This document shows, in pieces, positions 12,671 through 54,018 of a stretch of 64,000 nt of DNA. The notes beneath the pieces are model-generated. The model had not been told where the DNA came from, did not search any database, and saw nothing but the letters and a program-made list of their open reading frames with translations. Origin of the DNA: an uncultured Gammaproteobacteria bacterium (GTDB lineage Bacteria; Patescibacteriota; Patescibacteriia; Magasanikbacterales; JBBTXJ01). The translations under genes were made by a program, and so were the position numbers. The stretch covers positions 235-64,234 of the forward strand of contig CAZWRL010000001.1 in the NCBI GenBank assembly GCA_964636345.1, given 5' to 3'. The stretch's first letter is position 1, and every line of letters starts with the position of its first letter.

Positions 12671-12679
12671 ATTTACGGT

Positions 12680-13984: not shown

Positions 13985-13986
13985 GT

Positions 13987-14427: not shown

Positions 14428-14428
14428 T

Positions 14429-15118: not shown

Positions 15119-15121
15119 TCT

Positions 15122-32543: not shown

Positions 32544-32729
32544 CGCTCGTGCGAAGAAGTGGCCATTCATCCGTAGTCACGACAAGCATGGAGACACCTT
32601 GTGGGGTATTGCTGGCCTCCGGGCTCGCACGCTACTTCAAGGTGTCTTCTTGACTACGGGTTCTGTGGTTATTTCTGCAACACAGGAAACACATCACCAC
32701 CCCGGCTCTGCCGGGGTGGTTTGTTTTTC
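32544..32729 (+). ncRNA. Candidate ~185-nt structured RNA or cis-regulatory leader: nested long helices ending in a perfect 10-bp terminator
   Basis: Inverted repeats read directly: ccgtagtca/tgactacgg, gacaccttg/caaggtgtc, ctgtg/cacag, and terminator ACCACCCCGG-ctctg-CCGGGGTGGT plus TTGTTTTT. Embedded ORFs are short and lack SD. Confidence 0.4.
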
Positions 32730-32771
32730 AGAGTTGCGGGAAACGAAGGGAGTGTATATAGTGGTATCGCT

Positions 32772-34513: not shown

Positions 34514-35257
34514 ATGTATATGCCAGCTAAATTTATTTTTTCCGAGGATTGGAGCACCGCGAACCGTGCACAGTCCTGGTTAAAGGAGGTTGAACAATAT
34601 GGTAAGAATTCCTATGTTTTGGGTATACTGAATTTAATAGAGGGGTGCAAACCTCGCAGGGTTTTTGATGTTGGGTGTGGCAATGGATTTCCCTTTGCGA
34701 GTAGTTTACTAGAAAAAAACATTGAGGTACATGGTTGCGATCCCTCTCTCTCTCTCTTAAAAGAAGCAACACGGCAGTATCCAGCGCTTCGGTGGTATCA
34801 CACGGGTTACGAGCACATGGTAGAAAAAATTAATGGCGCACGTTACGATGTGGTGTATTGTTTGCGTAGTACGTGGTTATTCCCCAATATTATTTCCGCG
34901 CTTGGGAATATGCTTGAAATTACAAAACCCGGTGGTATAATAATTTTTGATATTATGAATAGTGATTCTCCAGAGATTAGTAAGTTTATAAAAACAATGA
35001 GAAAGAAAAAATATCGTACGTTTTTTAAAAATATTGTTAAACTTGTCCTCAATACAGTAGTGCGTACCAGCTATTCCTATGCTAGTGGCATAGATAAAAA
35101 TTATCCCGTTTCACCAAATCAGGTAGATACCTTTTTGATAAGAAAAAAATTCTTATTTAAGAAGTTTACTTTTAGTCAGATGTCGGGAGAAAATACCAGT
35201 TATGATCCGCTGGCATTTAGGATTTTATATTGCGTACAAGTTCCCGAGAATATTTAA
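34514..35257 (+). CDS. Class I SAM-dependent methyltransferase
   Basis: Motif I VFDVGCGNG; AT-rich gene relative to its surroundings. Confidence 0.55.
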   Translation: MYMPAKFIFSEDWSTANRAQSWLKEVEQYGKNSYVLGILNLIEGCKPRRVFDVGCGNGFPFASSLLEKNIEVHGCDPSLSLLKEATRQYPALRWYHTGYEHMVEKINGARYDVVYCLRSTWLFPNIISALGNMLEITKPGGIIIFDIMNSDSPEISKFIKTMRKKKYRTFFKNIVKLVLNTVVRTSYSYASGIDKNYPVSPNQVDTFLIRKKFLFKKFTFSQMSGENTSYDPLAFRILYCVQVPENI

Positions 35258-36108
35258 CCCCGCACAATCTTTTCCGCCTCTTCCGGTTTTATTTCGTAGA
35301 AGTGTTCGGGTTTGGGGAAGGCGCCCGTGCGCACGTCTTCAACATACGCGCGGAGCGCGAGTGAAATGAGTTGTCCGGCTTCGCAATAACGCTTGACGAA
35401 TTTTGGTTTGAATTGTTCAAACAAGCCAATCATGTCATGGATGATGACGAGTTGACCATCTACGTGGTCACCAGCGCCAATGCCGTAGACGGGTATTCTT
35501 AATTTTCCAGCAATCATGCCTCCGGATTCCGCCGGCATCGCTTCCAACAGCAAGAAATGTGCGCCTGCTTCTTCCAAGGCAAGTGCATCTTCCAAAAGCG
35601 CATCATAACTTTCTTTGGTTTTTCCTTGTACGCGGTAGCCGCCAAATTGCGCCATGTTTTGCGGGGTCAAACCGAGATGTCCCATCACCACAAAACCAGC
35701 ATCAACCATGGCGCGCACGCGGGACGCAACGCGTCGGCCGCCTTCACATTTCACCGCGTCACAGCCCGCTTCTTGAATAAACCGTCCGGCGTTCCGAATG
35801 GCGGTTTCCTCAGACGGTTGATAGCTCATAAAAGGCATGTCGCCCACAATAAACGCGCCTTTGCCTGCGGCGCGCACCACGGCTTTTGAGTGGCTGATCA
35901 TTTCATCCATCGTGACCGGGATGGTGGTTTCATAGCCGAGTGTTGTCATACCGAGTGAATCGCCAACCAAAATCATGTCCACACCCGCGCGGTTCGCCAA
36001 AAGCGCGAGCGGATAATCATACGCGGTGATGTACACCACTTTTTCGCCCTTTTTCTTTTTATCCAGGAGGGTGAGAAGGTTTATTTTTTTGCGTTCTTCA
36101 GTAGACAT
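35254..36108 (-). CDS. panB: 3-methyl-2-oxobutanoate hydroxymethyltransferase (ketopantoate hydroxymethyltransferase)
   Basis: PanB signature YDYPLALLANRAGVDMILVGDSLGMTTLGYETTIPVTMDEMISHSKAV...GDMPFMSY. Confidence 0.75.
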   Translation of the reverse strand: MSTEERKKINLLTLLDKKKKGEKVVYITAYDYPLALLANRAGVDMILVGDSLGMTTLGYETTIPVTMDEMISHSKAVVRAAGKGAFIVGDMPFMSYQPSEETAIRNAGRFIQEAGCDAVKCEGGRRVASRVRAMVDAGFVVMGHLGLTPQNMAQFGGYRVQGKTKESYDALLEDALALEEAGAHFLLLEAMPAESGGMIAGKLRIPVYGIGAGDHVDGQLVIIHDMIGLFEQFKPKFVKRYCEAGQLISLALRAYVEDVRTGAFPKPEHFYEIKPEEAEKIVRG

Positions 36109-36112
36109 ATAG

Positions 36113-37972
36113 TTAGTTTATTTCAGACGACTTTTTCTCGCCGCGACCTTCCAGCGGTTCAATCAGCATGTTGGTATAAAACTCTTCGCGTGGCAAGAAC
36201 GGCGCCATGTCTTCCAAAGGTTTTGAAATATAGCGCCCGTCCGGCAGACGATCGGCAACGAGTTTTGGCACGAGTTTTTGACCGGAATCTAAAATGACAT
36301 CGCAGAGCACTGGGCCGTTCATGTGGAGTACGTTTTGGATGCCGGCGCGCATTTCATCGTGATTGGCGATGGTGATGCCCGGAATACCATACGCCGCGGC
36401 AACACGAATAAAGTCAGGCGTGCTATATCCGCGCCCCGTTGCCTCGTAACGCGAATCAAAATAAATTTCTTGGAATTGTTTGATAATGCCGTAGCCGTGA
36501 TTATTCAAAATAAACATTTTGATTGGCAGATCATGGAAGCGAACCGTTTGCAACTCTTGGATATTGAGTTGAAAACCACCATCGCCATCAATACAGATAA
36601 TGCGTTTCTTTTTGTCCGTGCCAAATGCCGCTCCTATCGCCGCCGGCAGTGCATAGCCCATGGGTGAATTGCCAAAGGTGGAAAAAAGTTGCTGGCCTTC
36701 TTTGACGTGAAATGCCTGCATGGTCCACGTCAGATTGCCGCCCTGGTCAGGAATAATAATGTCATCCGCGCCTAATTCTTGCGACAACGTTTCAATGAAC
36801 GCGTAGGAGTTTACGGTGCCTTGTTGCGCGTAATATTCAGGGAGGACGGTGGGGTAGCGCTGTTTTTGTGTGGCGCAATAGGTTTTCCATTCCGTAAGAT
36901 CCGGCACGCGGATTGCCGGAAGCGCGGCGTAGAGCGCCTGTATAAAATCTTTGGCATCCAGAAGAATGGGCACATCCGCTTTGACACGATGAGACAATAT
37001 GTCACCTTTGAACAATTCTTTTTCGTCGATATCAACAACGATTTTTTTTGCGCCGCGCGCAAACGTTTGTCCTTGCGCGCTCGTTTGGCGCGTATCTAAC
37101 CGCGAACCAATCGCCATCACCAGATCAGCGTTTTGCACGGCAAAATTCGCGGCGCGGTTTCCGTATACGCCGTACTGTTCAACGTAGAGCGGATGGTTGT
37201 GGGGGAGAATATCAATGCCGCTCCAGCTTGCAATCACCGGGATGCCGAGTGCGTCTATCAGCGCGCGAAATTCTTTGGTGGCGCGCGCGAGTTTAATGCC
37301 GCCGCCCGCGATGATGACCGGACGACGCGATTGATTGATCAGCGTCACCACTTCTTGTATTTTTTTTTCAAGCGCATCCGGCGGCGTCAGCACGAGCGGT
37401 TCCGGCGTGTAACCAACCAGGGTGTCGGGATCAATGTCCGCGTGTTGAATGTTGAGTGAAATATCCAAAAGAACCGGTCCGGGACGGCCGCTTTGCGCAA
37501 TAGAGAACGCCTGTTCCAGCACGGCGCGGATTTTTTCCGGCTCCGTAATTTGGTATGCCCATTTGGTGATGGGTTTTGCGATATCCACAATTTCCGTTTC
37601 CTGAAAGCCAAGTTGCCGAACGCCGCTCGTCCCTTTGGTTTCGTGCATATTCACTTGTCCGCACAAGAAAATGCAGGGGATGGAATCAAACCACGCGCAG
37701 CAGATGCCGGTGATGAGATTGGTGGCTCCCGGGCCGCTGGTCACCACGGCCGCGCCCGGTACGCCGGTTACGCGCGCGTACGCCTCGGCCGCCATGGCGC
37801 CGGCCTGTTCGTGATTGACGCAGACGTAATCAATGTCGCGCGTCTTGCGTACCGTGCCGATGGAATCAACAATATGGGCGCATGCGCCGCCCGTGATGAG
37901 GAAGATTTTTTTTATGCCGCGATCGGCCAAAAAGTGAATGAGATAATCGGACAATTTCATACCTTCACACAC
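36113..37972 (-). CDS. Thiamine-diphosphate-dependent enzyme of the acetolactate-synthase large-subunit family; possible YerE-like sugar-branching enzyme
   Basis: TPP motif IDGDGGFQLNIQELQTV...NNHGYG; N-terminal Pyr domain; ~620 aa. Overlaps the adjacent sugar 3-dehydratase gene by 16 nt. Confidence 0.7.
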   Translation of the reverse strand: MCEGMKLSDYLIHFLADRGIKKIFLITGGACAHIVDSIGTVRKTRDIDYVCVNHEQAGAMAAEAYARVTGVPGAAVVTSGPGATNLITGICCAWFDSIPCIFLCGQVNMHETKGTSGVRQLGFQETEIVDIAKPITKWAYQITEPEKIRAVLEQAFSIAQSGRPGPVLLDISLNIQHADIDPDTLVGYTPEPLVLTPPDALEKKIQEVVTLINQSRRPVIIAGGGIKLARATKEFRALIDALGIPVIASWSGIDILPHNHPLYVEQYGVYGNRAANFAVQNADLVMAIGSRLDTRQTSAQGQTFARGAKKIVVDIDEKELFKGDILSHRVKADVPILLDAKDFIQALYAALPAIRVPDLTEWKTYCATQKQRYPTVLPEYYAQQGTVNSYAFIETLSQELGADDIIIPDQGGNLTWTMQAFHVKEGQQLFSTFGNSPMGYALPAAIGAAFGTDKKKRIICIDGDGGFQLNIQELQTVRFHDLPIKMFILNNHGYGIIKQFQEIYFDSRYEATGRGYSTPDFIRVAAAYGIPGITIANHDEMRAGIQNVLHMNGPVLCDVILDSGQKLVPKLVADRLPDGRYISKPLEDMAPFLPREEFYTNMLIEPLEGRGEKKSSEIN

Positions 37973-39180
37973 TGTTCAAGATATTGTTTGATGACGTTTA
38001 ATTCGTAGTCAACCATTTCCTCGGTCAGGCCGTGATTGCATCCGATAATGAAGGTGCGGCGCATAATGGTGTTCGCCCCCGTTAATTCTCCGTGTACGCG
38101 GCAGGCGAGATTTTTATAGGGTTCATGATAAAGAATATTGCCGGTAAAGAGCAGGCGCGTCTGGATGCGATTTTTTTCAAGATACGTTAAGAGATGCCGG
38201 CGCCCAATGGGTGAACTTTCACGAATGGTCACGGGGAAAGCAAGCCAGTACACCGTGGCCTTGGGATGCGACGTTGGCATGATAAAGTGTTCCGGATATT
38301 GCGAGAGGAAGTGGAATATCTTATTGAAATTCCGCATGCGAATGGTGTTGAAATAGGAAAGTTTTTTCAACTGCACCAGTCCAAACGCCGCCTGCATTTC
38401 AACTGGCTTGAAGTTATAGCCGATTTTGACGTGATAGAACTTACCGTCGTAGTCCGTGTCGTCTAATTTGAAATTGAAACGCTGTTCAATGTCTTCATCG
38501 TAGTTTTCTGGCAGGGCGCGTCCCCAGTCGCGGTAGACTTTTGCCGTGCGAATGAGATCAGGATTATTCACCATCACCATGCCGCCACCGCCACCGGCCG
38601 TCATGTTGTGCGAGGCATAGAAACTGGTGGTGGTAATATCTGACCACAGCCCCGGCGGTTTACCGTCATATAAACTGCCGTGCGTGTCGCATGAGTCCTC
38701 AATAAAGAGGAGGCCATATTTGTCACAGAGCGCGCGAATGCGTTCCATGTCATTCATGTTGCCGAGCGCGTGCGAGATAAAAATGGCTTTGGTTTTTGGC
38801 GAGATTGCGGCCTCCAGTTGATCAACGTCAATGTTGTAATTGCCTGGTTTTGAGTCAACAAAAACCGGCGTGTGTCCCTTTACGATAATCGGATTTAATG
38901 TGGCGGGGAAGGTGCAGGCCTGGGTGATAACCTCACAATCGCGCGGGAGGTTCGCAATTTCCATGGCAATTTGATTGGCCGAGGATCCGGAATTAACAAA
39001 AAGGCCGTATTGCTTGCCGAAGAGCGCGGCGATTTTATTTTCAAATTCTTCAGTGAGGCGGCCGGGACCCAGCCAGCCATCTTTCAAGCAGGCCACAACG
39101 GCGTCAATTTCTTCTTGATCAAAGACCGCTTTGGCGTAGAGGACGCGATCGCGACCCGGGACAAACTCCGTAGGGTTCAT
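37957..39180 (-). CDS. DegT/DnrJ/EryC1-family sugar 3-dehydratase (ColD/E1-like; His in place of the PLP lysine)
   Basis: Aminotransferase fold class (FVNSGSSANQIAME) with SFYASHNMTAGGGG, where His occupies the Schiff-base Lys position, the hallmark of 3-dehydratases. Confidence 0.6.
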   Translation of the reverse strand: MNPTEFVPGRDRVLYAKAVFDQEEIDAVVACLKDGWLGPGRLTEEFENKIAALFGKQYGLFVNSGSSANQIAMEIANLPRDCEVITQACTFPATLNPIIVKGHTPVFVDSKPGNYNIDVDQLEAAISPKTKAIFISHALGNMNDMERIRALCDKYGLLFIEDSCDTHGSLYDGKPPGLWSDITTTSFYASHNMTAGGGGGMVMVNNPDLIRTAKVYRDWGRALPENYDEDIEQRFNFKLDDTDYDGKFYHVKIGYNFKPVEMQAAFGLVQLKKLSYFNTIRMRNFNKIFHFLSQYPEHFIMPTSHPKATVYWLAFPVTIRESSPIGRRHLLTYLEKNRIQTRLLFTGNILYHEPYKNLACRVHGELTGANTIMRRTFIIGCNHGLTEEMVDYELNVIKQYLEQCVKV

Positions 39181-39186
39181 AGGAAT

Positions 39187-40134
39187 TTATAATTTGTTTT
39201 TATGATCGTTAATAATATCACGAACGACAAAGTGGGGGCGCTGTTTGACCTCTTGATAAATCCGGCCAATGTATTCGCCAATGATGGAAAGACACAAGAG
39301 TTGAATGGCGCCCAAAAAGAGCACCGAGACGAGCAGGGTCAAAAATCCTGGGGGCGCCTGCCGGTAGGTATACGCAAGCGCGATATAAAAAATAATGCCG
39401 ATTGCGGAGAGGAGGGTGACCGCGGCGGCAAGATAGCTAATCCATTCAAGCGGTTGTGACGAAAACGCAAAGATCATTTTTTTGGCCCATCGCACGTTGT
39501 CCATGAAGGTCAGATTGGTTTGTCCGGAAAATCGTTCGGCGCGGGTGTAAGGGATGCCGGTGCTCTTTAATCCTGTCCAAGCGCGGAGACCCCGGATAAA
39601 TCGGTTTGCTTCCGGTAACGTACTAATAAGATCAATCGCGCGACGATCCATGAGTCCAAATTCACTGGCGTCAAGCGGCATAGGCACATCAGCCACTTTT
39701 TTGAAAAGACGATAGAATGTTTTATAACCGATGCGGCGAATGACGCTGCCGCGGCGTCGCGCGCGGATGCCATACACGATGTGGTATCCTTCCAGCCATT
39801 TTTTTACGAATTCCGGAAAGAGTTCGGGCGGGTCTTGGATGTCGCCATCTAAGAGAATAGCCGCGTCTCCGGTGCAATAGGTGAGGCCGCTCGTGTAGGC
39901 ACTCTGAACACCAAAATTGCGCGTGTGGTTGATAACCGTGAGGCGGTTATCTTGGGCGGCAATTTCACGCAGGATTTCTTCAGCGCCGTCAGGACTGTTC
40001 TCATTCACGTACACTATTTCGTAGTTGGGCGTGATATTCGTCATCACGTCGGTCACGCGCCGGTGCATTTCTCGCACGCTGCCGCCGTCGTTATAGCAAA
40101 TGACGATAACAGAGAGTTTTTTGTCTGTCAGCAT
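39187..40134 (-). CDS. GT2 polyprenol-phosphate glycosyltransferase (DPM1/GtrB/ArnC-like) with C-terminal TM helices
   Basis: LSVIVICYND..., DGDIQDPPE (DxD), two C-terminal TMs. Confidence 0.7.
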   Translation of the reverse strand: MLTDKKLSVIVICYNDGGSVREMHRRVTDVMTNITPNYEIVYVNENSPDGAEEILREIAAQDNRLTVINHTRNFGVQSAYTSGLTYCTGDAAILLDGDIQDPPELFPEFVKKWLEGYHIVYGIRARRRGSVIRRIGYKTFYRLFKKVADVPMPLDASEFGLMDRRAIDLISTLPEANRFIRGLRAWTGLKSTGIPYTRAERFSGQTNLTFMDNVRWAKKMIFAFSSQPLEWISYLAAAVTLLSAIGIIFYIALAYTYRQAPPGFLTLLVSVLFLGAIQLLCLSIIGEYIGRIYQEVKQRPHFVVRDIINDHKNKL

Positions 40135-40232
40135 AGGGTTTTGACTGGATAATCACTCTAGCATAAGGGTTCCCCGGACACAAGAGCGGCTTGGTGGTTG
40201 ATTTTTTACAGATACCTGGGTATGCTCCTCAT

Positions 40233-40964
40233 ATGAAGGTTTTAATTACGGGCGTCTCATCGGGGATAGGACGAGCGCTTACGATACAATTGATTGAGCA
40301 AGGGCACGAGGTATGGGGTGTGGCGCGCCGGGCTGATATGTTGGCTGAATTAACGAGCACGGTAGTGAGCCCACGCTTGCATGTTGCTCCGTGCGATGTG
40401 AAGGATGCCGCGCACGTCACTGCCGTGGCGGCTGAAATGCGCACGGCTGGCTTTATACCGGATGTGGTTGTGCTGAATGCCGGTGTTTTTATCTCGGATA
40501 TTCACGGTGGGTTTCATTTTGATGCCCATCAAGAGTCATTTGATATTAATTTGAACGGCGCCCTCAGGTGGGTGGCTGAATTCTTGCCGGATTTTTTGGC
40601 GCGCGGTGCTGGTACGTTTATTGCTGTTTCTTCAACCGCTGCTTTTCGTCCAAGTGGCAGCGCTTCCTATTCGGGAAGTAAGGCCGCGCTTTCTATGGCG
40701 TTCCGTCAGTTTGCCATGAGTTTTGCTGATACGGGAATCACGTTTTCAACGGTTCATTTTGGACCCATTGATACGCGGCTCTGGCCGGGCAGGCGATTTT
40801 TTTTGGTGCCATCGTCCGGGCGCGCTGCCGCGTATGTGGCGCGGATGTTTGACCGGCCGAGCGGCTCGTACTTTTTTCCGTCCATTACGACGACGCTTTT
40901 GCGATTGTCGTTTTTTGTGCCGGATCGCGTCTTCAGATTTTTCGCGCGTTATTTGCGTCCATGA
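40233..40964 (+). CDS. Short-chain dehydrogenase/reductase (SDR)
   Basis: TGVSSGIGRAL Rossmann motif and YSGSKAAL catalytic Y-x3-K. Alternative start 40191. Confidence 0.6.
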   Translation: MKVLITGVSSGIGRALTIQLIEQGHEVWGVARRADMLAELTSTVVSPRLHVAPCDVKDAAHVTAVAAEMRTAGFIPDVVVLNAGVFISDIHGGFHFDAHQESFDINLNGALRWVAEFLPDFLARGAGTFIAVSSTAAFRPSGSASYSGSKAALSMAFRQFAMSFADTGITFSTVHFGPIDTRLWPGRRFFLVPSSGRAAAYVARMFDRPSGSYFFPSITTTLLRLSFFVPDRVFRFFARYLRP

Positions 40965-41683
40965 GTACATTGAATACATTTAGTGTTCACCTATCCGTGG
41001 TCATTCCGGCACATAACGAGGCGGAGAATTTGCGCGTGTTACTTCCGGAGTTGGACAATGCGCTCCAGCATATCTCCGCGGAAATGGTGGTGGTGAATAA
41101 CGCCTCAACCGACGCGACCGCGCGGATGCTCGCGGGGTTGCAGCGCGAGCTGCCGCGTCTTATGGTTGTTGAAGAACCAACACGTGGGTACGGCCGGGCG
41201 GTGCTGGCGGGGTTACGCCAGGTGCGCGGGGAAACCATTGCCATCATTCGGGGTGACGGCCAAGAGAAACCAATAGATGTTGCGCGGATGTATGCCTTTC
41301 ATCGCGCAGAAGGGCACGATGTTTCAAAGGGCGTGCGGAGCACACGCGCGCATGACGGCCTGCGCCGCATTGCGGTCAGTTGGTTTTTTAACACGCTGTT
41401 TCGGCAGGTATTTGAGGTTCCGTTTCGCGATATCAACGCTGCGCCCAAGTTTTTTTCGCGTCGTTTTTATGAGCAGGCGCGACTTGAATCATTGGATTGG
41501 TTTTTAGACGCCGAGATTATGTTGAAGGCCGCGGCGCTTCATTGCAAAATAGGGGAAATGGGAATAGAATACCTCCCGCGTCGTTCGGGGAAATCAACGG
41601 TGCGCTTTCGGCATATCGTGGAGTTTGTGAGAAATATCGCGCAGTGGCGGGCGCGCAAAACACATGACGGATACTTTTTATAA
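40961..41683 (+). CDS. GT2 glycosyltransferase
   Basis: LSVVIPAHNEAENL...; GT-A fold features. Confidence 0.6.
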   Translation: MSTLNTFSVHLSVVIPAHNEAENLRVLLPELDNALQHISAEMVVVNNASTDATARMLAGLQRELPRLMVVEEPTRGYGRAVLAGLRQVRGETIAIIRGDGQEKPIDVARMYAFHRAEGHDVSKGVRSTRAHDGLRRIAVSWFFNTLFRQVFEVPFRDINAAPKFFSRRFYEQARLESLDWFLDAEIMLKAAALHCKIGEMGIEYLPRRSGKSTVRFRHIVEFVRNIAQWRARKTHDGYFL

Positions 41684-42635
41684 CAATAAACGCGTTCTGG
41701 TGACGGGTGGGGCTGGATTTATCGGGTCATTTTTGGTGTTGGGGCTTGTGCGCGCGGGCGCGCGCGTTACGGTGCTCACGCGTCCTGGCGGAAACACGTG
41801 GCGACTGGCGGATATGCGCAAGAGTATTGAGATTGTCCCCGTTGATTTATTGAACAAGTCAGAGACGCTTGCGCTCCTCACGTCAGTTAAACCAGAATTG
41901 ATCTTTAATGTGGCCTCGCTCGTGAATACCACACAAACCGTTGAAGTGTTGGAAGAGTTGCTCCTGCAAAATTTTAGCATCGCCAAAAATCTTTTTCGGG
42001 CGGCGGCGCAGGCGGGTATTCCCAAGGTGGTGCAGGTGGGCAGTATTGAAGAATATGGGCACGGCGAGGTGCCGTTTCTTGAAACCGCGCGCGAGGCGCC
42101 CATTTCACCGTATTCACTTGCCAAGGTGATGACCACGCATTGCGCGCTTTGGTTTCATCGCACAGGCGCACTCCGCGTTTCGGTGGTGCGACCCGCCGCC
42201 ACGTTTGGCCCCGCGCAGGGCTTTGGCATGTTAACGCCCAATCTTATCCGCGCGTGTCTTGAAAAGAAGGATTTTTTGATGAACCCGGGCGATCAAATTC
42301 GCGATCTTATTTTTGTTGAAGATGTGGCGCGCGGCATCATGGCCGCGGGAGAGCGCGCGGAAGCGGACGGAGAAATTCTTAATTTGGGCAGCGGACGATT
42401 GTATCGCGTGAAAGAAGTGGCGCTTTTGATCAATGAATTACTCGGGAACCCCATTACCATTCAGTTTGGCGCGTATCCCTATCGTCCGCTTGATACGATG
42501 CGTTTTTTTATGGATTCACATAAGTCCCATCAGCTTTTGGGCTGGCACGCGCGCACGGATTTGACGCTCGGTATGCAACACACGGTTGCGTGGTATCGTG
42601 CCCATTATCAGGAGATGCCTTATGGCCAAACGTAG
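41664..42635 (+). CDS. NAD-dependent epimerase/dehydratase (extended SDR)
   Basis: VLVTGGAGFIGSFLV; YSLAK catalytic motif. Confidence 0.7.
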   Translation: MTDTFYNNKRVLVTGGAGFIGSFLVLGLVRAGARVTVLTRPGGNTWRLADMRKSIEIVPVDLLNKSETLALLTSVKPELIFNVASLVNTTQTVEVLEELLLQNFSIAKNLFRAAAQAGIPKVVQVGSIEEYGHGEVPFLETAREAPISPYSLAKVMTTHCALWFHRTGALRVSVVRPAATFGPAQGFGMLTPNLIRACLEKKDFLMNPGDQIRDLIFVEDVARGIMAAGERAEADGEILNLGSGRLYRVKEVALLINELLGNPITIQFGAYPYRPLDTMRFFMDSHKSHQLLGWHARTDLTLGMQHTVAWYRAHYQEMPYGQT

Positions 42636-44529
42636 TATCTTTTTTCTTTTTTCTTTGTTTTTGGCATTTGAATATATTATTTTGGGTCCATTTTCGTATG
42701 TGCGGATTGGCGATAACATGGATATTTTTATTCCGCGCTTGGTATCACTGTGGCAGGGATTTTTTGTAGACGGATTTTCTTTTTGGGATGGGCGTTTTGC
42801 CGGCGGGATTGATCGTCTCGCGAATGACATGGTGTATCCCAACGTGGGCGGTCTCTTGTTTGGGATCCTGCCCGCATGGGTAGCGTATGGGTTGGTTATT
42901 ATTGGCGCGACATGGCTTGGCGGATGGTATACCTATCGGCTCTGCCGCGAACACCTTGGTTTAGGCGAGCGCGCGAGCACGGTTGCGGGGGTGCTGTGGT
43001 CTTATGCGCTTATCACCGCGGATGTTATTCCGTATTTGCTTGGATTCGGCGCGTTGCCGGTTGCGCTGTATTATCTGGAAGCGCTTGCGCGCGCAGGAAA
43101 ACCGTGGTGCGGCAGGGCGTTTCTTTTGGGCATTGCGTTTGCGTTTTTTTCATCCGTGCCTTTTACGTTGCCGTTTACCCTGGCAGCAAGCGCGCTCTGG
43201 TTTGTGGCGGTGCGGAAACACACCACACGTTCCGCTATTGCTCTTTTTTCTCTCTTTGCGCTTGGCGCAATTCTGCCGCACATTCCCGAGGTGGGGGCGC
43301 TTGCGGTGAATGCGCCGCTTTCCAATCGCGGCGGCGATTTTTATAACGCGCCGTGGTCATACGGACTTTCCACTATTATCTATCTTTCGCGTTCCTATTG
43401 GTTTGTGATCGCGCTTGCCGCGGCTGGTTTTCTGGTGCGCAGTAAAGAACGCGCGTTTCGCGGCGCGTTTTTGCTTGGCGCGCTTTTTCTTGTAGTGGCG
43501 CCGTGGTATCAGCCGTTTGCCACGCGGTTCGGTCAGTATTTTCTGCTCGTCAAAGATTTTGGTTTTGACCGTTTTTACTTTCTCGCGCCGTTCTTTTTTG
43601 CCATTGCCGGCGGTTTCACGTTGCATCATCTCACGGGCACGGTGCGCGTGCGACAGCGGGAATATGAAAAGAGCGTGATCGCGATTGCCGCGCTTGCCGT
43701 GGCGCTGGTAGGGGCGCTGGGAATGCAAAAAGTCGCGCATGCGCGGGTGTGGCTGCGCGAGGGAAGTTTTTACGCGGCAACCCACAGTCCGGCCATTGAA
43801 AAAATTCGTGAACTCAACATGCAAGAACCGTTTCGCGTGGCTACTATTGCGGATGAACGCACTGGGCTCCGTCCCACACTCGCCAACATGAATGGTTGGG
43901 AAACCATTGATGGGGATATTAACATCGCGTCGCGGCGGTATGTGGAGTTTTTTAAAGCCTTGACGCAGAATCCGGCGGTTGAACCAAAACATAGTTTTTA
44001 TCTGTTGTGGCAGGCGGGCGATGAGGAGCGTGCGCAGGCGGCGAGTGACGCGAGCGCGCTTTTGGATCCCGCGTTGCTTTCACTGGCGAATGTGCGTTTT
44101 CTTTTGTCGCCGTTTCCGGTCTTTCTCACTGGTTTTCAGTTACTTCACGCGCCGGCTGTGGCGGCGGACGCGCCATCGTTTAAGGAGGCATGGAAGATAA
44201 ATACGCGCGGCAGGGATCTCTATCTGTATGAAAATAGTGCTGTGTTTTCGCGCGCGTTTTTGGTTGATGACGCAGAAAAAATTCCTGATGTAAAAAAAGT
44301 GCATCGCGCTGAAATTATTTTTTACACTCATGATAAAATTGAAATGACCACCGCGAGCAGTACGCCAGGAGTTTTGGTGTTAACCAATAACTATAATCCG
44401 GGATGGCACGTGCTGGTGGATGGCGAGGAGAAAAAAATAATGCCGGTATATACGACATTTATGGGAATATCGCTTGAAGGCGGAAATCATACCGTAGTGT
44501 GGAAATATACTCCGGAATCAAGCAAATAA
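42622..44529 (+). CDS. Large polytopic membrane protein, possible YfhO/GT-C-like glycosyltransferase
   Basis: At least 12 TM helices then a ~200-aa soluble C-terminal domain. SD aggag before the ATG; start overlaps the upstream gene. Confidence 0.4.
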   Translation: MAKRSIFFLFSLFLAFEYIILGPFSYVRIGDNMDIFIPRLVSLWQGFFVDGFSFWDGRFAGGIDRLANDMVYPNVGGLLFGILPAWVAYGLVIIGATWLGGWYTYRLCREHLGLGERASTVAGVLWSYALITADVIPYLLGFGALPVALYYLEALARAGKPWCGRAFLLGIAFAFFSSVPFTLPFTLAASALWFVAVRKHTTRSAIALFSLFALGAILPHIPEVGALAVNAPLSNRGGDFYNAPWSYGLSTIIYLSRSYWFVIALAAAGFLVRSKERAFRGAFLLGALFLVVAPWYQPFATRFGQYFLLVKDFGFDRFYFLAPFFFAIAGGFTLHHLTGTVRVRQREYEKSVIAIAALAVALVGALGMQKVAHARVWLREGSFYAATHSPAIEKIRELNMQEPFRVATIADERTGLRPTLANMNGWETIDGDINIASRRYVEFFKALTQNPAVEPKHSFYLLWQAGDEERAQAASDASALLDPALLSLANVRFLLSPFPVFLTGFQLLHAPAVAADAPSFKEAWKINTRGRDLYLYENSAVFSRAFLVDDAEKIPDVKKVHRAEIIFYTHDKIEMTTASSTPGVLVLTNNYNPGWHVLVDGEEKKIMPVYTTFMGISLEGGNHTVVWKYTPESSK

Positions 44530-44532
44530 AAC

Positions 44533-45276
44533 ATGGAAAAAAAATTTATAAACAATATCTTGCGCCGGTTTGGATATGAAATTCAAAAATCAGGCGGCAA
44601 GGGTTCGCTTGCGGCCGTACTTTTGCGTGCGAAACAAAATGGTCTTGCGCCTGCAACGGTCATTGATGTTGGCGCGGCGTGGGGGAATTGGAGTCGCGAG
44701 AGCGCGCGAGTATTTCCCGATGCGCGGTATGTGCTTGTTGAGCCGCTGGTGGAATATCGCGCATCGCTTGAGCAGGTGGCCAAAGAATTACCGGGCGCGG
44801 TTTTGGTGCCATTGGTTGCGGCCTCGGCGCCGGGAACCATGACGTTTCACGTGCATCCTGATCTTGAAGGATCGTCGGTGTATCGCGAAGGCGATGATCC
44901 GCAGATCAATGGCGTGCCGCGCGAGCTTCCAGCCACTACGCTTGATGCCATCGCCTATGAGCATCACGTTGAAGGGCCGTGTCTTTTGAAACTTGATGTG
45001 CAAGGCGCGGAACTTGAGGTGCTTCGTGGTGCGGAAGAGACGTTAAAAAATACCGAGTACGCGATACTTGAAACCTCGCTCTTTGCATCCTATGACAATG
45101 TGCCGCTTTTGCACGAGGTGATTGCGTTTATGGCCGGGCGCGGTTTTGTTCCGTACGATATTTTAGGATTGCTCTACCGTCCGCTTGATGGCGCGCTGTG
45201 CCAGACAGATGTATGTTTTGTGAAGGAAAATGGCATGTTCCGCCGCGAGCGGGCATACCGACACCACGGGGATTGA
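44533..45276 (+). CDS. FkbM-family methyltransferase
   Basis: VIDVGAAWGNW...LKLDVQGAELEVL FkbM signature. Confidence 0.6.
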   Translation: MEKKFINNILRRFGYEIQKSGGKGSLAAVLLRAKQNGLAPATVIDVGAAWGNWSRESARVFPDARYVLVEPLVEYRASLEQVAKELPGAVLVPLVAASAPGTMTFHVHPDLEGSSVYREGDDPQINGVPRELPATTLDAIAYEHHVEGPCLLKLDVQGAELEVLRGAEETLKNTEYAILETSLFASYDNVPLLHEVIAFMAGRGFVPYDILGLLYRPLDGALCQTDVCFVKENGMFRRERAYRHHGD

Positions 45277-45348: not shown

Positions 45349-46074
45349 ATGGACTTAGAAAATCATGGTTATGAGGTCAGCACTCGTTTAGTGGAAGAGT
45401 TAGCCATTCGTCAGCTTGCGCAGGTGTATCGGAAGGCAGACCCCTTTCCGCACACGGTTATAGATGGCTTTTTGTCAGAGGATTTTTTAGATGAAGTCGT
45501 TCACGATTTTGATGCCATACCAGATTCCCACTGGCAGGTATTTGAAAAAGAGGGATATGCGTATAAATTGGAGTGTCGGGAGATGGAACATTTAGGGTCA
45601 AGGGGTCGCCAAATTTTTTACGAATTGAATTCACCCCCTTTTCTGCGTTATCTTGAAAAATTAACGGGCATTACAGGATTAGTGCCCGATCCGTATCTCA
45701 TGGGTGCTGGTTTCCATAAAATTCCCCGCGGTGGCAAGCTGGCGGTGCACGCTGATTTTAATTGGTATGAACATTTTAAACTGTACCGCCGCGTCAATCT
45801 TCTGTGTTATTTAAACAAAGAATGGCAGGATGATTATAACGGGCATCTTGAGCTGTGGGATAAAACACTTGAACATTGTGTGAAACGTGTGGCACCCGTG
45901 TTTAACCGTGCCGTTATATTTAATACGACTGATTCGAGTTTTCACGGGTACCCGGGTGAAATACAATGTCCTGAAGGCATGCATCGTAAGGCAGTAACGC
46001 TATATTATTATACGAATGGCCGACCGGAAGAGGAAGCGGCTGCGCCACATAAAACCATTTGGAAAGAAACATAG
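45349..46074 (+). CDS. 2-oxoglutarate/Fe(II)-dependent oxygenase superfamily protein
   Basis: HxD...H arrangement (AVHADF ... SFHGYP) and PFPHTVIDGFLS N-terminus. Alternative start 45283. Confidence 0.45.
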   Translation: MDLENHGYEVSTRLVEELAIRQLAQVYRKADPFPHTVIDGFLSEDFLDEVVHDFDAIPDSHWQVFEKEGYAYKLECREMEHLGSRGRQIFYELNSPPFLRYLEKLTGITGLVPDPYLMGAGFHKIPRGGKLAVHADFNWYEHFKLYRRVNLLCYLNKEWQDDYNGHLELWDKTLEHCVKRVAPVFNRAVIFNTTDSSFHGYPGEIQCPEGMHRKAVTLYYYTNGRPEEEAAAPHKTIWKET

Positions 46075-46075
46075 T

Positions 46076-54017: not shown

Positions 54018-54018
54018 T

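What the first reader, a model, noticed from the sequence alone, without database searches (positions are those of the whole stretch)
36113..39180. Sugar 3-dehydratase (His-for-Lys DegT enzyme) translationally coupled to a TPP-dependent ALS-family enzyme: candidate branched-chain 3,6-dideoxyhexose pathway
- The DegT-family protein has His at the PLP-lysine position (SFYASHNMTAGGGG), the signature of the ColD/E1 3-dehydratases in 3,6-dideoxyhexose synthesis.
- It overlaps by 16 nt a ~620-aa TPP enzyme of the acetolactate-synthase family.
- The only described precedent for this pairing is yersiniose biosynthesis, where the TPP enzyme YerE adds a two-carbon branch to the 3,6-dideoxy-4-keto sugar.
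- No 4,6-dehydratase or nucleotidyltransferase was seen in the window.
Basis: partly seen in the sequence, partly recalled or inferred. Interest (0 to 1): 0.55.

Follow-up and report, generated by a model that had tools for sequence, protein, structure and literature searches.

The report
Branched deoxysugar operon with recruited PanB
A tiny-genome (CPR/Patescibacteria) bacterium carries an operon that most likely builds an unusual carbon-branched deoxysugar for its cell surface, and a vitamin-B5 pathway enzyme (PanB) appears to have been recruited to make the branch.

Summary
The DegT-family protein (39180..37957, minus strand) has His191 at the Schiff-base lysine position. It is most similar to the E1/RfbH 3-dehydratase. 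The next gene encodes a three-domain ThDP enzyme. Its real start is probably the ATG at 37960, which gives 615 aa and a 4-nt ATGA overlap rather than 16 nt.

- The ThDP enzyme falls in a 100/100-bootstrap clade with the solved YerE-like enzymes JanthE and PpYerE.
- That clade excludes IlvB-type synthases, which carry IlvH/IlvC/IlvD neighbours that this enzyme lacks.

- The precedent is wider than yersiniose. A "2-oxo-acid maker + YerE-like enzyme + reductase" scheme is published for erwiniose, caryophyllose and gastriose.
- This whole E1-like clade (122/122 sequences) lacks the [2Fe-2S] cysteines. That implies ColD-like chemistry with no E3 reductase.
- A canonical PanB lies 4 nt downstream. 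The ThDP–PanB pair recurs in at least eight distinct loci from other sources, alongside all three kinds of His-type 3-dehydratase.

I infer that PanB supplies a 4-hydroxy-2-oxo acid donor. The flanking genes (PgfS/ArnC-like GT2, SDR, YfhO-like protein) suggest delivery on a polyprenyl-phosphate carrier.

The window holds no nucleotidyltransferase and no confident 4,6-dehydratase. I class this as a new variant of a known kind.

The parts
39187..40134 (-). First gene of the operon: GT2 glycosyltransferase of the polyprenyl-phosphate type (PgfS/ArnC/GtrB-like), with two C-terminal hydrophobic helices
   Evidence: Pfam Glycos_transf_2. The best NCBIfam models are PgfS (246 bits) and ArnC (148 bits), both below cut-off. 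Orthologues at 45-78% identity lie beside the ThDP/DegT genes in L001, L002, L004, L007 and L014, and PgfS-like GT2s do so in L092 and L094. The stop lies 6 nt before the DegT start.
37957..39180 (-). PMP-type sugar 3-dehydratase, E1/RfbH-like, with His191 in place of the PLP lysine and without the E1 [2Fe-2S] cysteine motif
   Evidence: NCBIfam RfbH scores 397.8 bits against a cut-off of 423. PDB matches: E1 3BCX 278 bits, ColD 142 bits. His191 aligns with E1 His220, and E1 D194 and Y217 are kept. Fe-S ligands C251/C253/C261 are absent in all 121 window-clade sequences, while C193 is kept.
36113..37960 (-). YerE-like ThDP (probably FAD-binding) carboligase, 615 aa from the ATG; the mechanical ORF runs on to a GTG at 37972
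   Evidence: Three ThDP-enzyme domains. Best solved relatives are JanthE 8RPH (2e-124) and PpYerE 5AHK (3e-112). It falls in a clade with them at 100/100 bootstrap. There are no IlvH/C/D neighbours. The ATGA overlap with the DegT stop is read directly. The 615-aa form is the publicly called gene.
35254..36108 (-). Canonical ketopantoate hydroxymethyltransferase (PanB), last gene of the operon, 4 nt after the ThDP gene stop
   Evidence: Pfam Pantoate_transf 350 bits. NCBIfam panB 323 bits against 207.55, and PRK00311 350 against 272, both above cut-off. Motifs VGDSLG, GDMPF, VKCEGG, GHLGLTPQ and LEAMP are aligned and conserved against M. tuberculosis PanB 1OY0. ThDP-PanB adjacency is conserved in L001, L089/90, L091, L092, L093, L094 and L097. 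The junction sequence is shown.
40191..40964 (+). Classical short-chain dehydrogenase, divergently transcribed; candidate reductase of the branch carbonyl (YerF analogue)
   Evidence: Pfam adh_short. Orthologues at 46-56% identity lie beside the DegT/ThDP genes in L001, L002, L004 and L089. The role is inferred from the published scheme. No solved relative was found at E <= 1e-20.
40961..41683 (+). Second, short GT2 glycosyltransferase (dolichyl/polyprenyl-phosphate hexose transferase-like)
   Evidence: Pfam Glycos_transf_2 with weak NCBIfam matches to PgfS, ArnC and AglJ. Found only in the window's own species (L086).
41664..42635 (+). Extended-SDR epimerase/dehydratase; the only plausible in-window candidate for a 4,6-dehydratase or 4-keto-forming enzyme, role unresolved
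   Evidence: The best NCBIfam models are the LegB 4,6-dehydratase (126 bits) and RmlB (122 bits), far below cut-offs. Aligned to RmlB 8SHH it reads S-I-E where RmlB has T-D-E, so the Glu is kept and the Asp is lost. Orthologues at 55-57% identity occur in L001 and L089 only.
42586..44529 (+). YfhO/DUF6044 polytopic membrane protein (GT-C-like); candidate extracytoplasmic transferase for the lipid-linked sugar
   Evidence: Pfam DUF6044 and YfhO C-terminal match. Weak match to PgfM2. Conserved in L001 and L089. YfhO or PMT_2 proteins also occur in L004 and L094.
44533..45276 (+). FkbM-family methyltransferase, conserved next to the YfhO gene
   Evidence: Pfam Methyltransf_21. The same arrangement is seen in L001 and L089.
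34514..35257 (+). SAM methyltransferase convergent with PanB (4-nt overlap of the 3' ends); possible sugar O-methylase
   Evidence: Pfam methyltransferase domains. Present in the same position in L086-L088. Its link to the pathway is not tested.

Best explanation
The window comes from a CPR/Patescibacteria genome close to Candidatus Uhrbacteria. On its minus strand lies a tightly packed four-gene operon: GT2, then an E1-like 3-dehydratase, then a YerE-like ThDP enzyme, then PanB. I propose that it makes a C-4 acyl-branched 3-deoxy sugar and loads it on a lipid carrier.

Proposed steps:
(1) An NDP-4-keto-6-deoxyhexose is made by genes outside the window. In related loci this precursor comes from CDP-glucose. 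Its C-3 hydroxyl is removed by the His191 PMP enzyme. This enzyme, like its whole clade, lacks the E1 [2Fe-2S] ligands, and no E3-type reductase is nearby. The enzyme therefore most likely works like ColD: the sugar-PMP ene intermediate is hydrolysed, and PMP is regenerated by transamination.
(2) PanB hydroxymethylates a 2-oxo acid with 5,10-methylene-tetrahydrofolate. This gives a 4-hydroxy-2-oxo acid, which is ketopantoate if the substrate is the canonical 2-oxoisovalerate.
(3) The YerE-like ThDP enzyme decarboxylates that 2-oxo acid and adds the acyl-anion equivalent to the C-4 ketone of the sugar. This creates a tertiary alcohol with an acyl branch.
(4) The conserved short-chain dehydrogenase reduces the branch carbonyl, as YerF does.
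(5) The PgfS/ArnC-like GT2 transfers the sugar to a polyprenyl phosphate. After flipping, the YfhO-like GT-C protein attaches it to a surface acceptor.

Shown by sequence and comparative evidence: the His substitution, the loss of the Fe-S motif, membership of the YerE-like clade, the canonical PanB, and the conserved gene linkages.

Inferred: every substrate, the order of steps, the PanB-to-ThDP hand-off and the lipid-carrier route.

My probabilities are about 0.75 for 'His-type 3-dehydratase plus YerE-like branching of an NDP-keto-sugar', about 0.45 for 'PanB makes the donor', and about 0.5 for the lipid-carrier/GT-C delivery.
For: 3-dehydratase:
- His sits at the lysine position and is invariant in 122/122 aligned sequences.
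- E1 is the top solved relative at 278 bits, and RfbH is the top NCBIfam model.
- The Fe-S cysteines are replaced in all 121 window-clade sequences.
- A review states that E1 and SpnQ carry a [2Fe-2S] cluster, ColD does not, and the catalytic His replaces Lys in all three.

ThDP enzyme:
- JanthE and PpYerE are the best solved relatives.
- It forms a 100/100 clade with them and apart from IlvB-likes.
- IlvB-like loci nearly always have IlvH/C/D next door, whereas this clade never does.
- Co-location with an RfbH-like DegT and a GT2 is seen only for relatives at 37% identity or more.

Published scheme: an aldolase-made functionalised 2-oxo acid, a YerE-like enzyme and a reductase together account for erwiniose, caryophyllose and gastriose. 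ErwE accepts 4-hydroxy-2-oxo acids and rejects pyruvate.

PanB:
- It scores above the NCBIfam cut-offs.
- The motifs I recall as catalytic are conserved.
- The gap after the ThDP gene is 4 nt.
- The ThDP-PanB pair is kept when the DegT gene moves away (L001, L089).
- The pair recurs in divergent loci. L092 has RfbF, a canonical Fe-S RfbH and an RfbG-like gene. L093 has RfbG and a canonical RfbH. L097, labelled Chloroflexi, has a ColD-type DegT. L094 is a further case.
- Five more contig-length coincidences between the ThDP and PanB hit lists point the same way.

Delivery: PgfS/ArnC-like GT2 and YfhO/PMT-type proteins are conserved around the core.
Against: - No nucleotidyltransferase and no confident 4,6-dehydratase lie in the 64 kb, so the acceptor sugar is unknown.
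- No enzyme of this clade has been assayed. Several predicted YerE-like enzymes (MygE, RhopE, SpirE) have not shown ketone acceptance in vitro.
- Ketopantoate has a quaternary C-3. No YerE-like enzyme has been reported to take such a hindered donor; those tested took linear, C-4-branched or 4-hydroxy donors.
- The window holds no source of 2-oxoisovalerate, having no IlvC, IlvD or IlvE.
- ThDP-linked PanBs are not a separate clade from other PanBs, and one close PanB (P0273) is not ThDP-linked. Linkage is therefore not universal.
- Many CPR loci have DegT, ThDP enzyme, GT2 and SDR without PanB, so PanB is an accessory and not part of the core.
Confidence: 0.7

Rival explanations
1. Same branched-sugar pathway, but the ThDP enzyme uses pyruvate or another simple 2-oxo acid, giving an acetyl or short acyl branch as in yersiniose. 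PanB would then not supply the donor. It might serve pantothenate/CoA metabolism or another step and merely ride in the operon.
For: YerE itself uses pyruvate. Most CPR loci with the DegT-ThDP pair have no PanB. PanB is a canonical, highly conserved enzyme with roughly 65-70% identity to PanBs from MAGs of other phyla (Gammaproteobacteria, Firmicutes, Omnitrophica), and it is not a distinct subfamily.
Against: The intergenic gap is 4 nt on the same strand. ThDP-PanB adjacency survives rearrangements and recurs in at least 8 distinct loci with three different dehydratase types. No panC, panD or panE and no ilvC or ilvD lie in the window. From general knowledge, CPR genomes usually lack cofactor biosynthesis. 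The published scheme expects a 2-oxo-acid-forming partner in exactly this position.
Confidence: 0.2
2. The acceptor is not a 6-deoxyhexose but a UDP-4-keto-pentose made Arn-style: UDP-glucose dehydrogenase, then an oxidative decarboxylase. The product would be a branched deoxypentose carried on the same lipid route.
For: The module layout (DegT + extended SDR + ArnC-like GT2 + GT-C) mirrors the Arn pathway. UDP-glucose dehydrogenase genes are in the window and in L089 and L092. The extended SDR at 41664-42635 has S-I-E at the catalytic triad position, lacking the RmlB Asp. No RfbF or RfbG is in the window.
Against: Relatives with the same ThDP-PanB pair carry glucose-1-phosphate cytidylyltransferase and CDP-glucose 4,6-dehydratase in the operon. 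The DegT protein's nearest characterised relative acts on CDP-4-keto-6-deoxyglucose. The extended SDR is not conserved across CPR loci.
Confidence: 0.1
3. The ThDP enzyme is a true acetolactate synthase and, with PanB, belongs to a valine/pantoate route. The DegT gene would be an unrelated neighbour.
For: The best NCBIfam model names are acetolactate synthase large subunits. PanB uses 2-oxoisovalerate, which lies downstream of acetolactate.
Against: All ALS models score below cut-off. Identity to E. coli IlvI is 31%, against 39-53% for real IlvB loci. No IlvH, IlvC or IlvD is present, whereas they accompany nearly all IlvB-like loci. A 100/100 clade places it with YerE-like enzymes. The Trp of the AHAS QWQE motif is Phe here, and the loop before FQE carries a 4-residue insertion typical of the YerE-like group. 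The gene is coupled by ATGA to the DegT gene.
Confidence: 0.03
4. The His-type DegT protein does not complete a deoxygenation. Without a reductase it acts as SpnQ can, giving a 4-amino sugar, or it has another PMP-dependent role. The ThDP enzyme would then act on a different ketone.
For: SpnQ shows aminotransferase activity without its reductase. No Fe-S cluster and no E3 reductase is encoded here.
Against: ColD deoxygenates without any Fe-S cluster or reductase. A ColD-type DegT accompanies the ThDP-PanB pair in L097, and canonical E1 does so in L092 and L093. This suggests that the three dehydratase types are interchangeable suppliers of the same kind of 3-deoxy-4-keto acceptor. E1 residues D194 and Y217 are retained; by my recollection of Smith et al. 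2008 they distinguish dehydratase from transaminase.
Confidence: 0.05

Closest known systems
Yersiniose A pathway of Yersinia pseudotuberculosis (E1/E3 then YerE then YerF)
   Same: A His-type PMP 3-dehydratase is followed by an ALS-family ThDP enzyme that adds an acyl branch at C-4 of the 3,6-dideoxy-4-keto sugar, and then by a reductase.
   Different: The 3-dehydratase here has no [2Fe-2S] motif and there is no E3. A PanB gene is coupled to the ThDP gene. No rfbF or rfbG lies in the locus. The context is a polyprenyl-phosphate GT2 plus a GT-C protein in a CPR bacterium, not an O-antigen cluster of a Gram-negative bacterium.
Erwiniose, caryophyllose and gastriose clusters (ErwE/ErwI/ErwJ/ErwF, MMAR_2331-2333, MygE/MygI/MygF): the 'unifying scheme' of Steitz et al. 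2022
   Same: The logic is the same: a dedicated enzyme makes a hydroxylated 2-oxo acid, a YerE-like enzyme couples it to the deoxy-keto sugar, and a reductase follows. 4-Hydroxy-2-oxo acids are proven donors for ErwE and MygE.
   Different: The 2-oxo-acid maker there is a pyruvate aldolase (BphI/HpaI or citrate-lyase type). Here it would be the folate-dependent hydroxymethyltransferase PanB. I found no report of that pairing in the searchable library.
JanthE (PDB 8RPH) and PpYerE (PDB 5AHK)
   Same: They are the closest solved structures, at 419 and 379 bits, and share a clade with the window enzyme. Shared with JanthE are the GVYG.RAANF segment (JanthE Y268), the PKL lysine (JanthE K567) and the C-terminal P(L/I)ED..P..PR tail.
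   Different: The window enzyme has the canonical GDG ThDP motif, whereas JanthE has CDG. It keeps GFQET like PpYerE, where JanthE has GVQGY. The physiological substrates of JanthE are unknown.
E1 (CDP-6-deoxy-L-threo-D-glycero-4-hexulose 3-dehydrase, RfbH/DdhC/AscC)
   Same: It is the best solved match (1e-81) and RfbH is the best family model. The catalytic His, D194 and Y217 are conserved.
   Different: The score is just below the RfbH cut-off, 397.8 against 423. Fe-S ligands C251, C253 and C261 are absent in this protein and in its 120 closest relatives.
ColD (GDP-4-keto-6-deoxymannose 3-dehydratase)
   Same: It is a His-type PMP enzyme with no Fe-S cluster and no partner reductase, which is the chemistry I infer here.
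   Different: It is a much more distant sequence, at 142 bits against 278 for E1. A true ColD-type motif (SFYFGHH..) is seen in L097 but not in the window protein.
Three-component polyprenyl-phosphate glycosylation systems (ArnC/ArnT, GtrB/GtrC, CsbB/YfhO, PgfS/PgfM)
   Same: A GT2 with C-terminal membrane helices scores best against PgfS and ArnC, and a YfhO/DUF6044 GT-C-like protein lies in the same cluster.
   Different: All scores are below family cut-offs. No GtrA-type flippase was seen in the window. The sugar would be far more elaborate than the Glc, GlcNAc or Ara4N carried by the known systems.

Membership tests
PMP-dependent NDP-sugar 3-dehydratases (E1 / ColD / SpnQ) | DegT/aspartate-aminotransferase fold with the catalytic lysine replaced by histidine | tested here: met
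   Pfam DegT_DnrJ_EryC1 at 289 bits. His191 aligns with E1 His220. His is invariant in 122/122 aligned sequences. The criterion is stated in the review read.
PMP-dependent NDP-sugar 3-dehydratases (E1 / ColD / SpnQ) | Removes the C-3 hydroxyl of an NDP-4-keto-6-deoxyhexose | not testable with these tools
   This needs an enzyme assay. Support is contextual only: relatives sit in CDP-glucose pathway operons.
E1-type (Fe-S dependent) 3-dehydratase, RfbH equivalog | [2Fe-2S] cluster bound by C193, C251, C253 and C261 (E1 numbering, as I recall from Agnihotri et al. 2004), working with an E3 reductase | tested here: not met
   Only the C193 equivalent is present. The other three positions are a gap, Leu and Ile, and they are non-Cys in all 121 window-clade sequences. 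Canonical RfbH proteins in L092 and L093 keep the CWC..C motif. No E3-like domain is in the window. The NCBIfam RfbH score is below cut-off.
YerE-like ThDP carboligases (decarboxylase superfamily) | Three-domain ALS-type ThDP enzyme that groups with characterised YerE-like enzymes and not with AHAS | tested here: met
   Domains are present. In the PDB ranking JanthE and PpYerE come ahead of AHAS. The NJ clade has 100/100 support.
YerE-like ThDP carboligases (decarboxylase superfamily) | Encoded with genes for a 3-deoxy-4-keto NDP-sugar (3-dehydratase) and a reductase | tested here: met
   The gene has an ATGA overlap with the 3-dehydratase gene. An SDR is conserved alongside. The same linkage appears in relatives from several phyla.
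YerE-like ThDP carboligases (decarboxylase superfamily) | Accepts a non-activated ketone (the sugar C-4 carbonyl) as acceptor | not testable with these tools
   This is a biochemical property. It has been shown only for YpYerE, ErwE, PpYerE and JanthE.
Acetohydroxyacid synthase large subunit (IlvB/IlvI/IlvG) | Reaches the curated family score, has a small regulatory subunit and sits in an ilv gene context | tested here: not met
   All ALS equivalogs are below cut-off. Identity to IlvI is 31%, and no IlvH, IlvM, IlvC or IlvD lies in the window, whereas nearly all IlvB-like loci have them. QFQE replaces the AHAS QWQE motif.
Ketopantoate hydroxymethyltransferase (PanB) | Reaches the curated equivalog score and keeps the Mg2+/catalytic motifs | tested here: met
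   TIGR00222 scores 323 bits against 207.55, and PRK00311 scores 350 against 272. VGDSLG, GDMPF, VKCEGG, GHLGLTPQ and LEAMP are conserved against 1OY0. Assigning these motifs to the Mg2+ ligands and catalytic Lys/Glu is from my own knowledge of the E. coli and M. tuberculosis structures.
Ketopantoate hydroxymethyltransferase (PanB) | Functions in pantothenate biosynthesis alongside panC, panD and panE | tested here: inconclusive
   No pan or ilv partner is in the 64-kb window or in any ThDP-linked locus. The rest of the genome could not be searched.
Polyprenyl-phosphate glycosyltransferases (GtrB/ArnC/PgfS type GT2) | GT2 catalytic domain plus C-terminal membrane helices, and similarity to characterised members | tested here: inconclusive
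   PgfS (246 bits against cut-off 500) and ArnC (148 against 529) are the best models but fall below cut-off. Two hydrophobic C-terminal stretches are read directly from the translation.
CDP-3,6-dideoxyhexose pathway (RfbF, RfbG, RfbH, RfbI) | Glucose-1-phosphate cytidylyltransferase and CDP-glucose 4,6-dehydratase encoded with the 3-dehydratase | tested here: not met
   tblastn finds no RfbF in the window and only weak RfbG similarity to the three extended SDRs. Both genes are present in the related loci L092 and L093. They may lie elsewhere in this genome.

The most novel reading that the evidence does not exclude
PanB, otherwise known only from vitamin B5 synthesis, has been recruited repeatedly into surface-glycan operons of CPR and other uncultured bacteria. 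Its product, ketopantoate or a related 4-hydroxy-2-oxo acid, would be the acyl donor of a YerE-like ThDP enzyme. The result would be a so-far undescribed branched 3,6-dideoxyhexose with a hydroxylated, possibly gem-dimethyl C4/C5 side chain. That sugar would be displayed through a polyprenyl-phosphate/GT-C route. The Fe-S-less E1-like dehydratase of this clade would run on transamination. Its amino donor could even be valine, which would make the PanB substrate in situ. That last point is pure speculation.
Probability: 0.4. Interest if true: 0.7.

Novelty: new variant of a known kind. Interest (0 to 1): 0.55.

Why it matters
**Glycobiology and biocatalysis.** The finding predicts a new natural branched sugar. 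It also predicts a new kind of donor-forming partner, a folate-dependent hydroxymethyltransferase, for the YerE-like enzymes. These enzymes are sought after as catalysts for chiral tertiary alcohols. The predicted ThDP enzyme might accept hindered or hydroxylated donors.

**Enzymology.** It defines a large clade of E1-like 3-dehydratases that have lost the iron-sulfur cluster. That clade is a natural test of how the E1 and ColD mechanisms interconvert.

**CPR biology.** These minimal, symbiotic cells usually lack cofactor and amino-acid biosynthesis. Here they keep a ThDP-, PMP- and folate-dependent pathway (probably FAD-binding as well) for a cell-surface decoration. The glycan genes diverge fast (69-74% nt identity against about 85% for neighbouring core genes), while PanB is held almost constant. 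This points to the surface glycan as an important and variable interface with hosts or phages.

**Annotation.** 'Acetolactate synthase' and 'PanB' calls in CPR genomes should not be read as evidence for branched-chain amino acid or pantothenate synthesis.

Tried and rejected
- **Genome scan.** Only about 9 of 80 loci were close relatives, and the rest were IlvB genes. I turned those into a negative control for neighbourhood. The scan gave no proper census of the clade.
- **First tree attempt.** It timed out. I redid it with a lighter distance method.
- **PanB subfamily.** I looked for a PanB subfamily specific to ThDP-linked genes. The linked PanBs are not monophyletic among the top 120 hits, so there is no sign of neofunctionalisation.
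- **Donor-pocket residues.** I looked for residues in the ThDP enzyme that track PanB linkage. Columns 48 (Val) and 54 (Gly), next to the catalytic Glu, correlate: 10/10 and 9/10 in linked sequences against 1/12 each in unlinked ones. The sample is small and not phylogenetically corrected. P0117, which has Gly54, is not PanB-linked. I treat this as suggestive only.
- **98% PanB identity with L001.** It looked like a transfer signal next to 69% for the ThDP enzyme. At nucleotide level it is 90%, against 85% for neighbouring core genes and 69-74% for the glycan genes. This is explained by strong purifying selection on PanB and fast-evolving glycan genes, not by an anomaly.
- **Extended SDR at 41664-42635.** I tried to assign it as the missing 4,6-dehydratase. 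Scores and the S-I-E motif are inconclusive.
- **Short-chain dehydrogenase.** It has no solved relative at E <= 1e-20.
- **Literature.** Krug et al. 2024, the in-silico survey of more than 200 YerE-like clusters, and Lanza et al. 2024, the JanthE paper, are not held in the library. I cannot exclude that PanB-type or CPR clusters are already listed there. Searches for YerE with hydroxymethyltransferase, for 'YerE-like', and for ketopantoate with nucleotide sugar found no such link. A search for Patescibacteria with YfhO found nothing.

Full report
**What is there**

Between about 32.6 kb and the end of the window lies one large cell-surface glycan region. It holds glycosyltransferases of families 1, 2 and 4 and a Bac_transf initiating transferase. 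It also holds a Wzx-like flippase, PMT_2 and YfhO membrane proteins, UDP-glucose dehydrogenases, methyltransferases and an AsnB-like amidotransferase.

Inside this region, on the minus strand, four genes are packed head to tail:
- a GT2 gene (40134..39187);
- 6 nt later, the DegT-family gene (39180..37957);
- the ThDP-enzyme gene (37972 or 37960..36113);
- 4 nt later, a PanB gene (36108..35254).

A short-chain dehydrogenase, a second GT2, an extended-SDR epimerase/dehydratase, a YfhO/DUF6044 membrane protein and an FkbM methyltransferase are transcribed divergently from 40191 onward.

**Organism**

The DegT protein is identical to one found on metagenome contigs of up to 80.7 kb. It is 85% identical to a protein of Candidatus Uhrbacteria RIFCSPLOWO2_02_FULL_51_9. 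The closest named ThDP-enzyme relatives are from Candidatus Magasanikbacteria, Yanofskybacteria, Doudnabacteria and Paceibacterota. The window is therefore from a CPR/Patescibacteria genome.

**Checking the observation**

The motif SFYASHNMTAGGGG is present. In the HMMER alignment to E1, the His of 'ASH' falls on E1 His220. The column is unambiguous because PDB holds both wild type (3BCX, 'ahh') and the H220K mutant (3BB8, 'akh'). All 122 aligned sequences (the window protein, E1 and the 120 closest database relatives) have His in that column.

E1 residues D194 and Y217 are also conserved, and F345 is Leu. From memory of Smith et al. 2008, these are the positions that together with H220 had to be changed to turn E1 into a transaminase.

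The second gene has all three ThDP-enzyme domains.

The 16-nt overlap is an artefact of taking the first GTG as the start:
- every homologue starts MKLSDY;
- public gene callers use the ATG at 37960, and that 615-aa protein is on record in four sources;
- the DNA reads GGT-ATG-A, so the start and stop codons share an ATGA.

This is the classic arrangement for translational coupling.

**Is the ThDP enzyme an acetolactate synthase?**

No, on five independent lines of evidence:
- All acetolactate-synthase NCBIfam equivalogs score far below their cut-offs.
- Among solved structures the best matches are JanthE (8RPH, 419 bits) and the Pseudomonas protegens YerE (5AHK, 379 bits), well above plant, yeast and E. 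coli AHAS at 300 bits or less. 8RPH is identified as JanthE, a YerE-like enzyme, in PMC12188165. Review PMC12247030 names PpYerE and JanthE as the two YerE-like enzymes with structures; equating 5AHK with PpYerE is from my own recollection.
- A genome scan returned 80 loci that split cleanly. Relatives at 37% identity or more to the window enzyme usually have an RfbH-like DegT gene, and often the same GT2, nearby. None of those at 36% or less does.
- Using E. coli IlvI, IlvH, IlvC and IlvD as probes, nearly all of the lower-identity loci carry IlvH, IlvC or IlvD next door, and their enzymes are 39-53% identical to IlvI. The window and all 23 loci of its group are 27-35% identical to IlvI and have none of these neighbours.
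- In a neighbour-joining tree the window enzyme, its CPR relatives, JanthE and PpYerE form a clade that excludes all IlvB-like sequences, in 100 of 100 bootstrap replicates.

The alignment shows group-specific features:
- a four-residue insertion before GFQET;
- GVYGNRAANF in place of GMHGT..AN;
- SRLDTR in place of RFDDR;
- QFQE in place of the AHAS QWQE;
- a C-terminal P(L/I)ED..P..PR tail in most YerE-like sequences, including JanthE, which the IlvB sequences lack.

The catalytic Glu (HEQ) and the GDG...NN ThDP motif are intact.

**What the literature adds**

Steitz et al. 2022 (PMC9306805) proposed and partly demonstrated a unifying scheme for acyl-branched sugars:
- a dedicated aldolase makes a functionalised 2-oxo acid;
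- a YerE-like enzyme decarboxylates it and adds it to CDP-4-keto-3,6-dideoxyglucose;
- a YerF-like reductase follows.

The scheme covers erwiniose (ErwE with the aldolase/dehydrogenase pair ErwI/ErwJ), caryophyllose (MMAR_2331/2332) and gastriose (MygE/MygI). ErwE rejects pyruvate and takes 4-hydroxy-2-oxo acids. A 2025 review (PMC12247030) adds JanthE, RhopE and SpirE. [quoted passage not shown]

So the DegT/ThDP pairing is a member of a known, if little studied, kind of pathway.

**Difference 1: the dehydratase has lost its iron-sulfur cluster**

E1 binds a [2Fe-2S] cluster and needs the reductase E3. ColD has neither, and regenerates PMP by transamination with glutamate (review PMC8987622).

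The window protein is clearly on the E1 side by sequence: 278 bits against 142 for ColD, and RfbH is the top family model at 397.8 bits, just under the 423 cut-off. Yet where E1 reads [21 protein letters not shown], the window protein reads RDWGRALPENYDEDIEQRF.

Of the four ligands, only the C193 equivalent remains. C251, C253 and C261 are absent in all 121 window-clade sequences. No ferredoxin-reductase-type gene is in the window. Canonical RfbH proteins in related loci (L092, L093) keep the CWC...C motif and score 636-727 bits.

I therefore infer ColD-type chemistry in an E1-type scaffold. This is a sequence-level inference and has not been assayed.

**Difference 2: PanB**

The gene 4 nt downstream of the ThDP gene is a textbook ketopantoate hydroxymethyltransferase:
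- It scores above both NCBIfam cut-offs.
- It keeps the motifs VGDSLG, GDMPF, VKCEGG, GHLGLTPQ and LEAMP when aligned to the M. tuberculosis structure.
- It is roughly 65-70% identical to PanBs from MAGs labelled as other phyla.

Nothing else of pantothenate or valine biosynthesis is in the window.

The linkage is conserved:
- In L001 (a Magasanikbacteria MAG) and L089/L090 (Uhrbacteria) the DegT gene has moved a few genes away, but GT2-ThDP-PanB stays together. L091 has the window's arrangement.
- The closest PanB homologues outside this lineage are again next to a YerE-clade ThDP gene.
  - L092 carries, in order: epimerase, glucose-1-phosphate cytidylyltransferase (above cut-off), canonical RfbH, CDP-glucose 4,6-dehydratase-like, ThDP enzyme, PanB, extended SDR, PgfS-like GT2.
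  - L093 has a bona fide CDP-glucose 4,6-dehydratase and RfbH.
  - L094 is a further case.
  - L097 is a MAG labelled Chloroflexi. Its partner DegT has the ColD-type motif SFYFGHH.
Three of them are the contigs of L092, L093 and L094.

One close PanB (P0273, a gammaproteobacterial MAG) is not linked. Many CPR loci have the DegT-ThDP-GT2-SDR core without PanB.

So PanB is an optional module. When present, it sits directly after the ThDP gene, and it is found with all three flavours of His-type 3-dehydratase. In the published scheme that position belongs to the enzyme that makes the 2-oxo acid donor.

PanB makes exactly the class of compound, a 4-hydroxy-2-oxo acid, that ErwE and MygE accept. 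My inference is that PanB supplies the donor. This would be ketopantoate if it acts on 2-oxoisovalerate, or a less substituted analogue if it acts on 2-oxobutyrate or pyruvate.

Weak points:
- Ketopantoate has steric bulk at its quaternary C-3.
- The source of 2-oxoisovalerate is unknown.
- The linked PanBs are not a distinct clade.

I found no paper connecting PanB or ketopantoate with YerE-like enzymes.

**Difference 3: the delivery route**

The first gene of the operon is a GT2 whose best models are PgfS and ArnC. Its C-terminus has two hydrophobic helices. This is the type of enzyme that loads a sugar on undecaprenyl phosphate.

Orthologues accompany the ThDP gene across CPR loci, and PgfS-like GT2s follow it in L092 and L094. 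YfhO/DUF6044 or PMT_2 membrane proteins are nearby in the window, L001, L004, L089 and L094.

This resembles the ArnC/ArnT, GtrB/GtrC, CsbB/YfhO and PgfS/PgfM systems; the comparison is from my own knowledge of those systems. It suggests that the sugar is added outside the membrane. All family scores are below cut-off, so this part is the least secure.

**What is missing**

There is no nucleotidyltransferase in the window (Pfam scans; tblastn with RfbF). There is no confident 4,6-dehydratase either.

The extended SDR at 41664-42635 is the best candidate. Its best models are 4,6-dehydratases, but at a third of the cut-off score. At the RmlB T-D-E position it reads S-I-E.

An Arn-like origin of the acceptor from UDP-glucuronate therefore cannot be excluded. 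The CDP-glucose genes in L092 and L093 argue for a 6-deoxyhexose.

**Verdict**

The pathway type is known. The variant is new to the best of my search: a Fe-S-less E1-like dehydratase, PanB as the presumptive donor-forming enzyme, and a polyprenyl-phosphate/GT-C context in CPR bacteria. All of it is testable with four recombinant proteins.

Noticed in passing
window 32601-34469 (+): A large polytopic membrane protein with no Pfam or NCBIfam hit lies convergent with or next to PanB in the window, L001, L089 and L091. Its likely start is near 32772 (MKKIIV...). It may be an unrecognised GT-C-type transferase belonging to the same system.
   Followed up: partly
window 35254-36108 versus L001 11923-12774: PanB is 98% identical in protein and 90% in DNA between the window and a Magasanikbacteria-labelled MAG. 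The adjacent glycan genes are only 69-74% identical in DNA, and neighbouring core genes about 85%. The glycan genes look fast-evolving, while PanB is under strong constraint.
   Followed up: yes
window 46016-48232 (+): A fusion protein of a complete UDP-glucose/GDP-mannose dehydrogenase (three domains) with a C-terminal SAM methyltransferase domain (738 aa).
   Followed up: no
window 60369-61217 (+): A short UDP-glucose dehydrogenase-like ORF has the N-terminal and central domains but no C-terminal UDP-binding domain. Its probable start is MSALKDKRVGV. It is only 33% identical to the fused copy at 46016, so it is either a truncated paralogue or a distinct short dehydrogenase.
   Followed up: partly
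window 50076-51734 and 53728-55809 (+): A glutamine-dependent NAD synthase (CN_hydrolase + NAD_synthase) and an AsnB-type amidotransferase are embedded in the glycan cluster. The AsnB-like enzyme may amidate a uronic acid.
   Followed up: no
window 1557-2315 and 3590-4348 (-): Two 252-aa paralogues carry a MopE-type metal-binding motif. They are 64% identical overall but share a 378-nt stretch at 98% DNA identity, which suggests recent partial gene conversion.
   Followed up: partly
window 9887-17197 (+): A run of large ORFs without family hits (927 and 434 aa) is followed by a PrgI-family protein and a TraG/VirB4-like P-loop ATPase. This looks like a type IV secretion or conjugation-like module.
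   Followed up: no
L099 18960-20603: In a related locus without PanB, a split transketolase-like pair (Transketolase_N / Transket_pyr) lies near the YerE-like gene. That gives a second ThDP system in the same glycan cluster.
   Followed up: no
L097 6020-7528: A B12-binding radical SAM enzyme and a NUDIX protein follow the ThDP-PanB-ColD-like-epimerase genes in the Chloroflexi-labelled locus. NUDIX genes also lie beside the core in L004 and L099. These could be further tailoring steps (C-methylation, 2,3-dehydration).
   Followed up: no
window ThDP enzyme residues 48 and 54 (615-aa numbering): Val48 and Gly54 flank the catalytic Glu51. They are found in 10/10 and 9/10 PanB-linked ThDP enzymes but in only 1/12 each of the unlinked ones. 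JanthE, which takes bulky donors, is the unlinked enzyme with Val48. These may be donor-pocket determinants, but the comparison is not phylogenetically corrected.
   Followed up: partly
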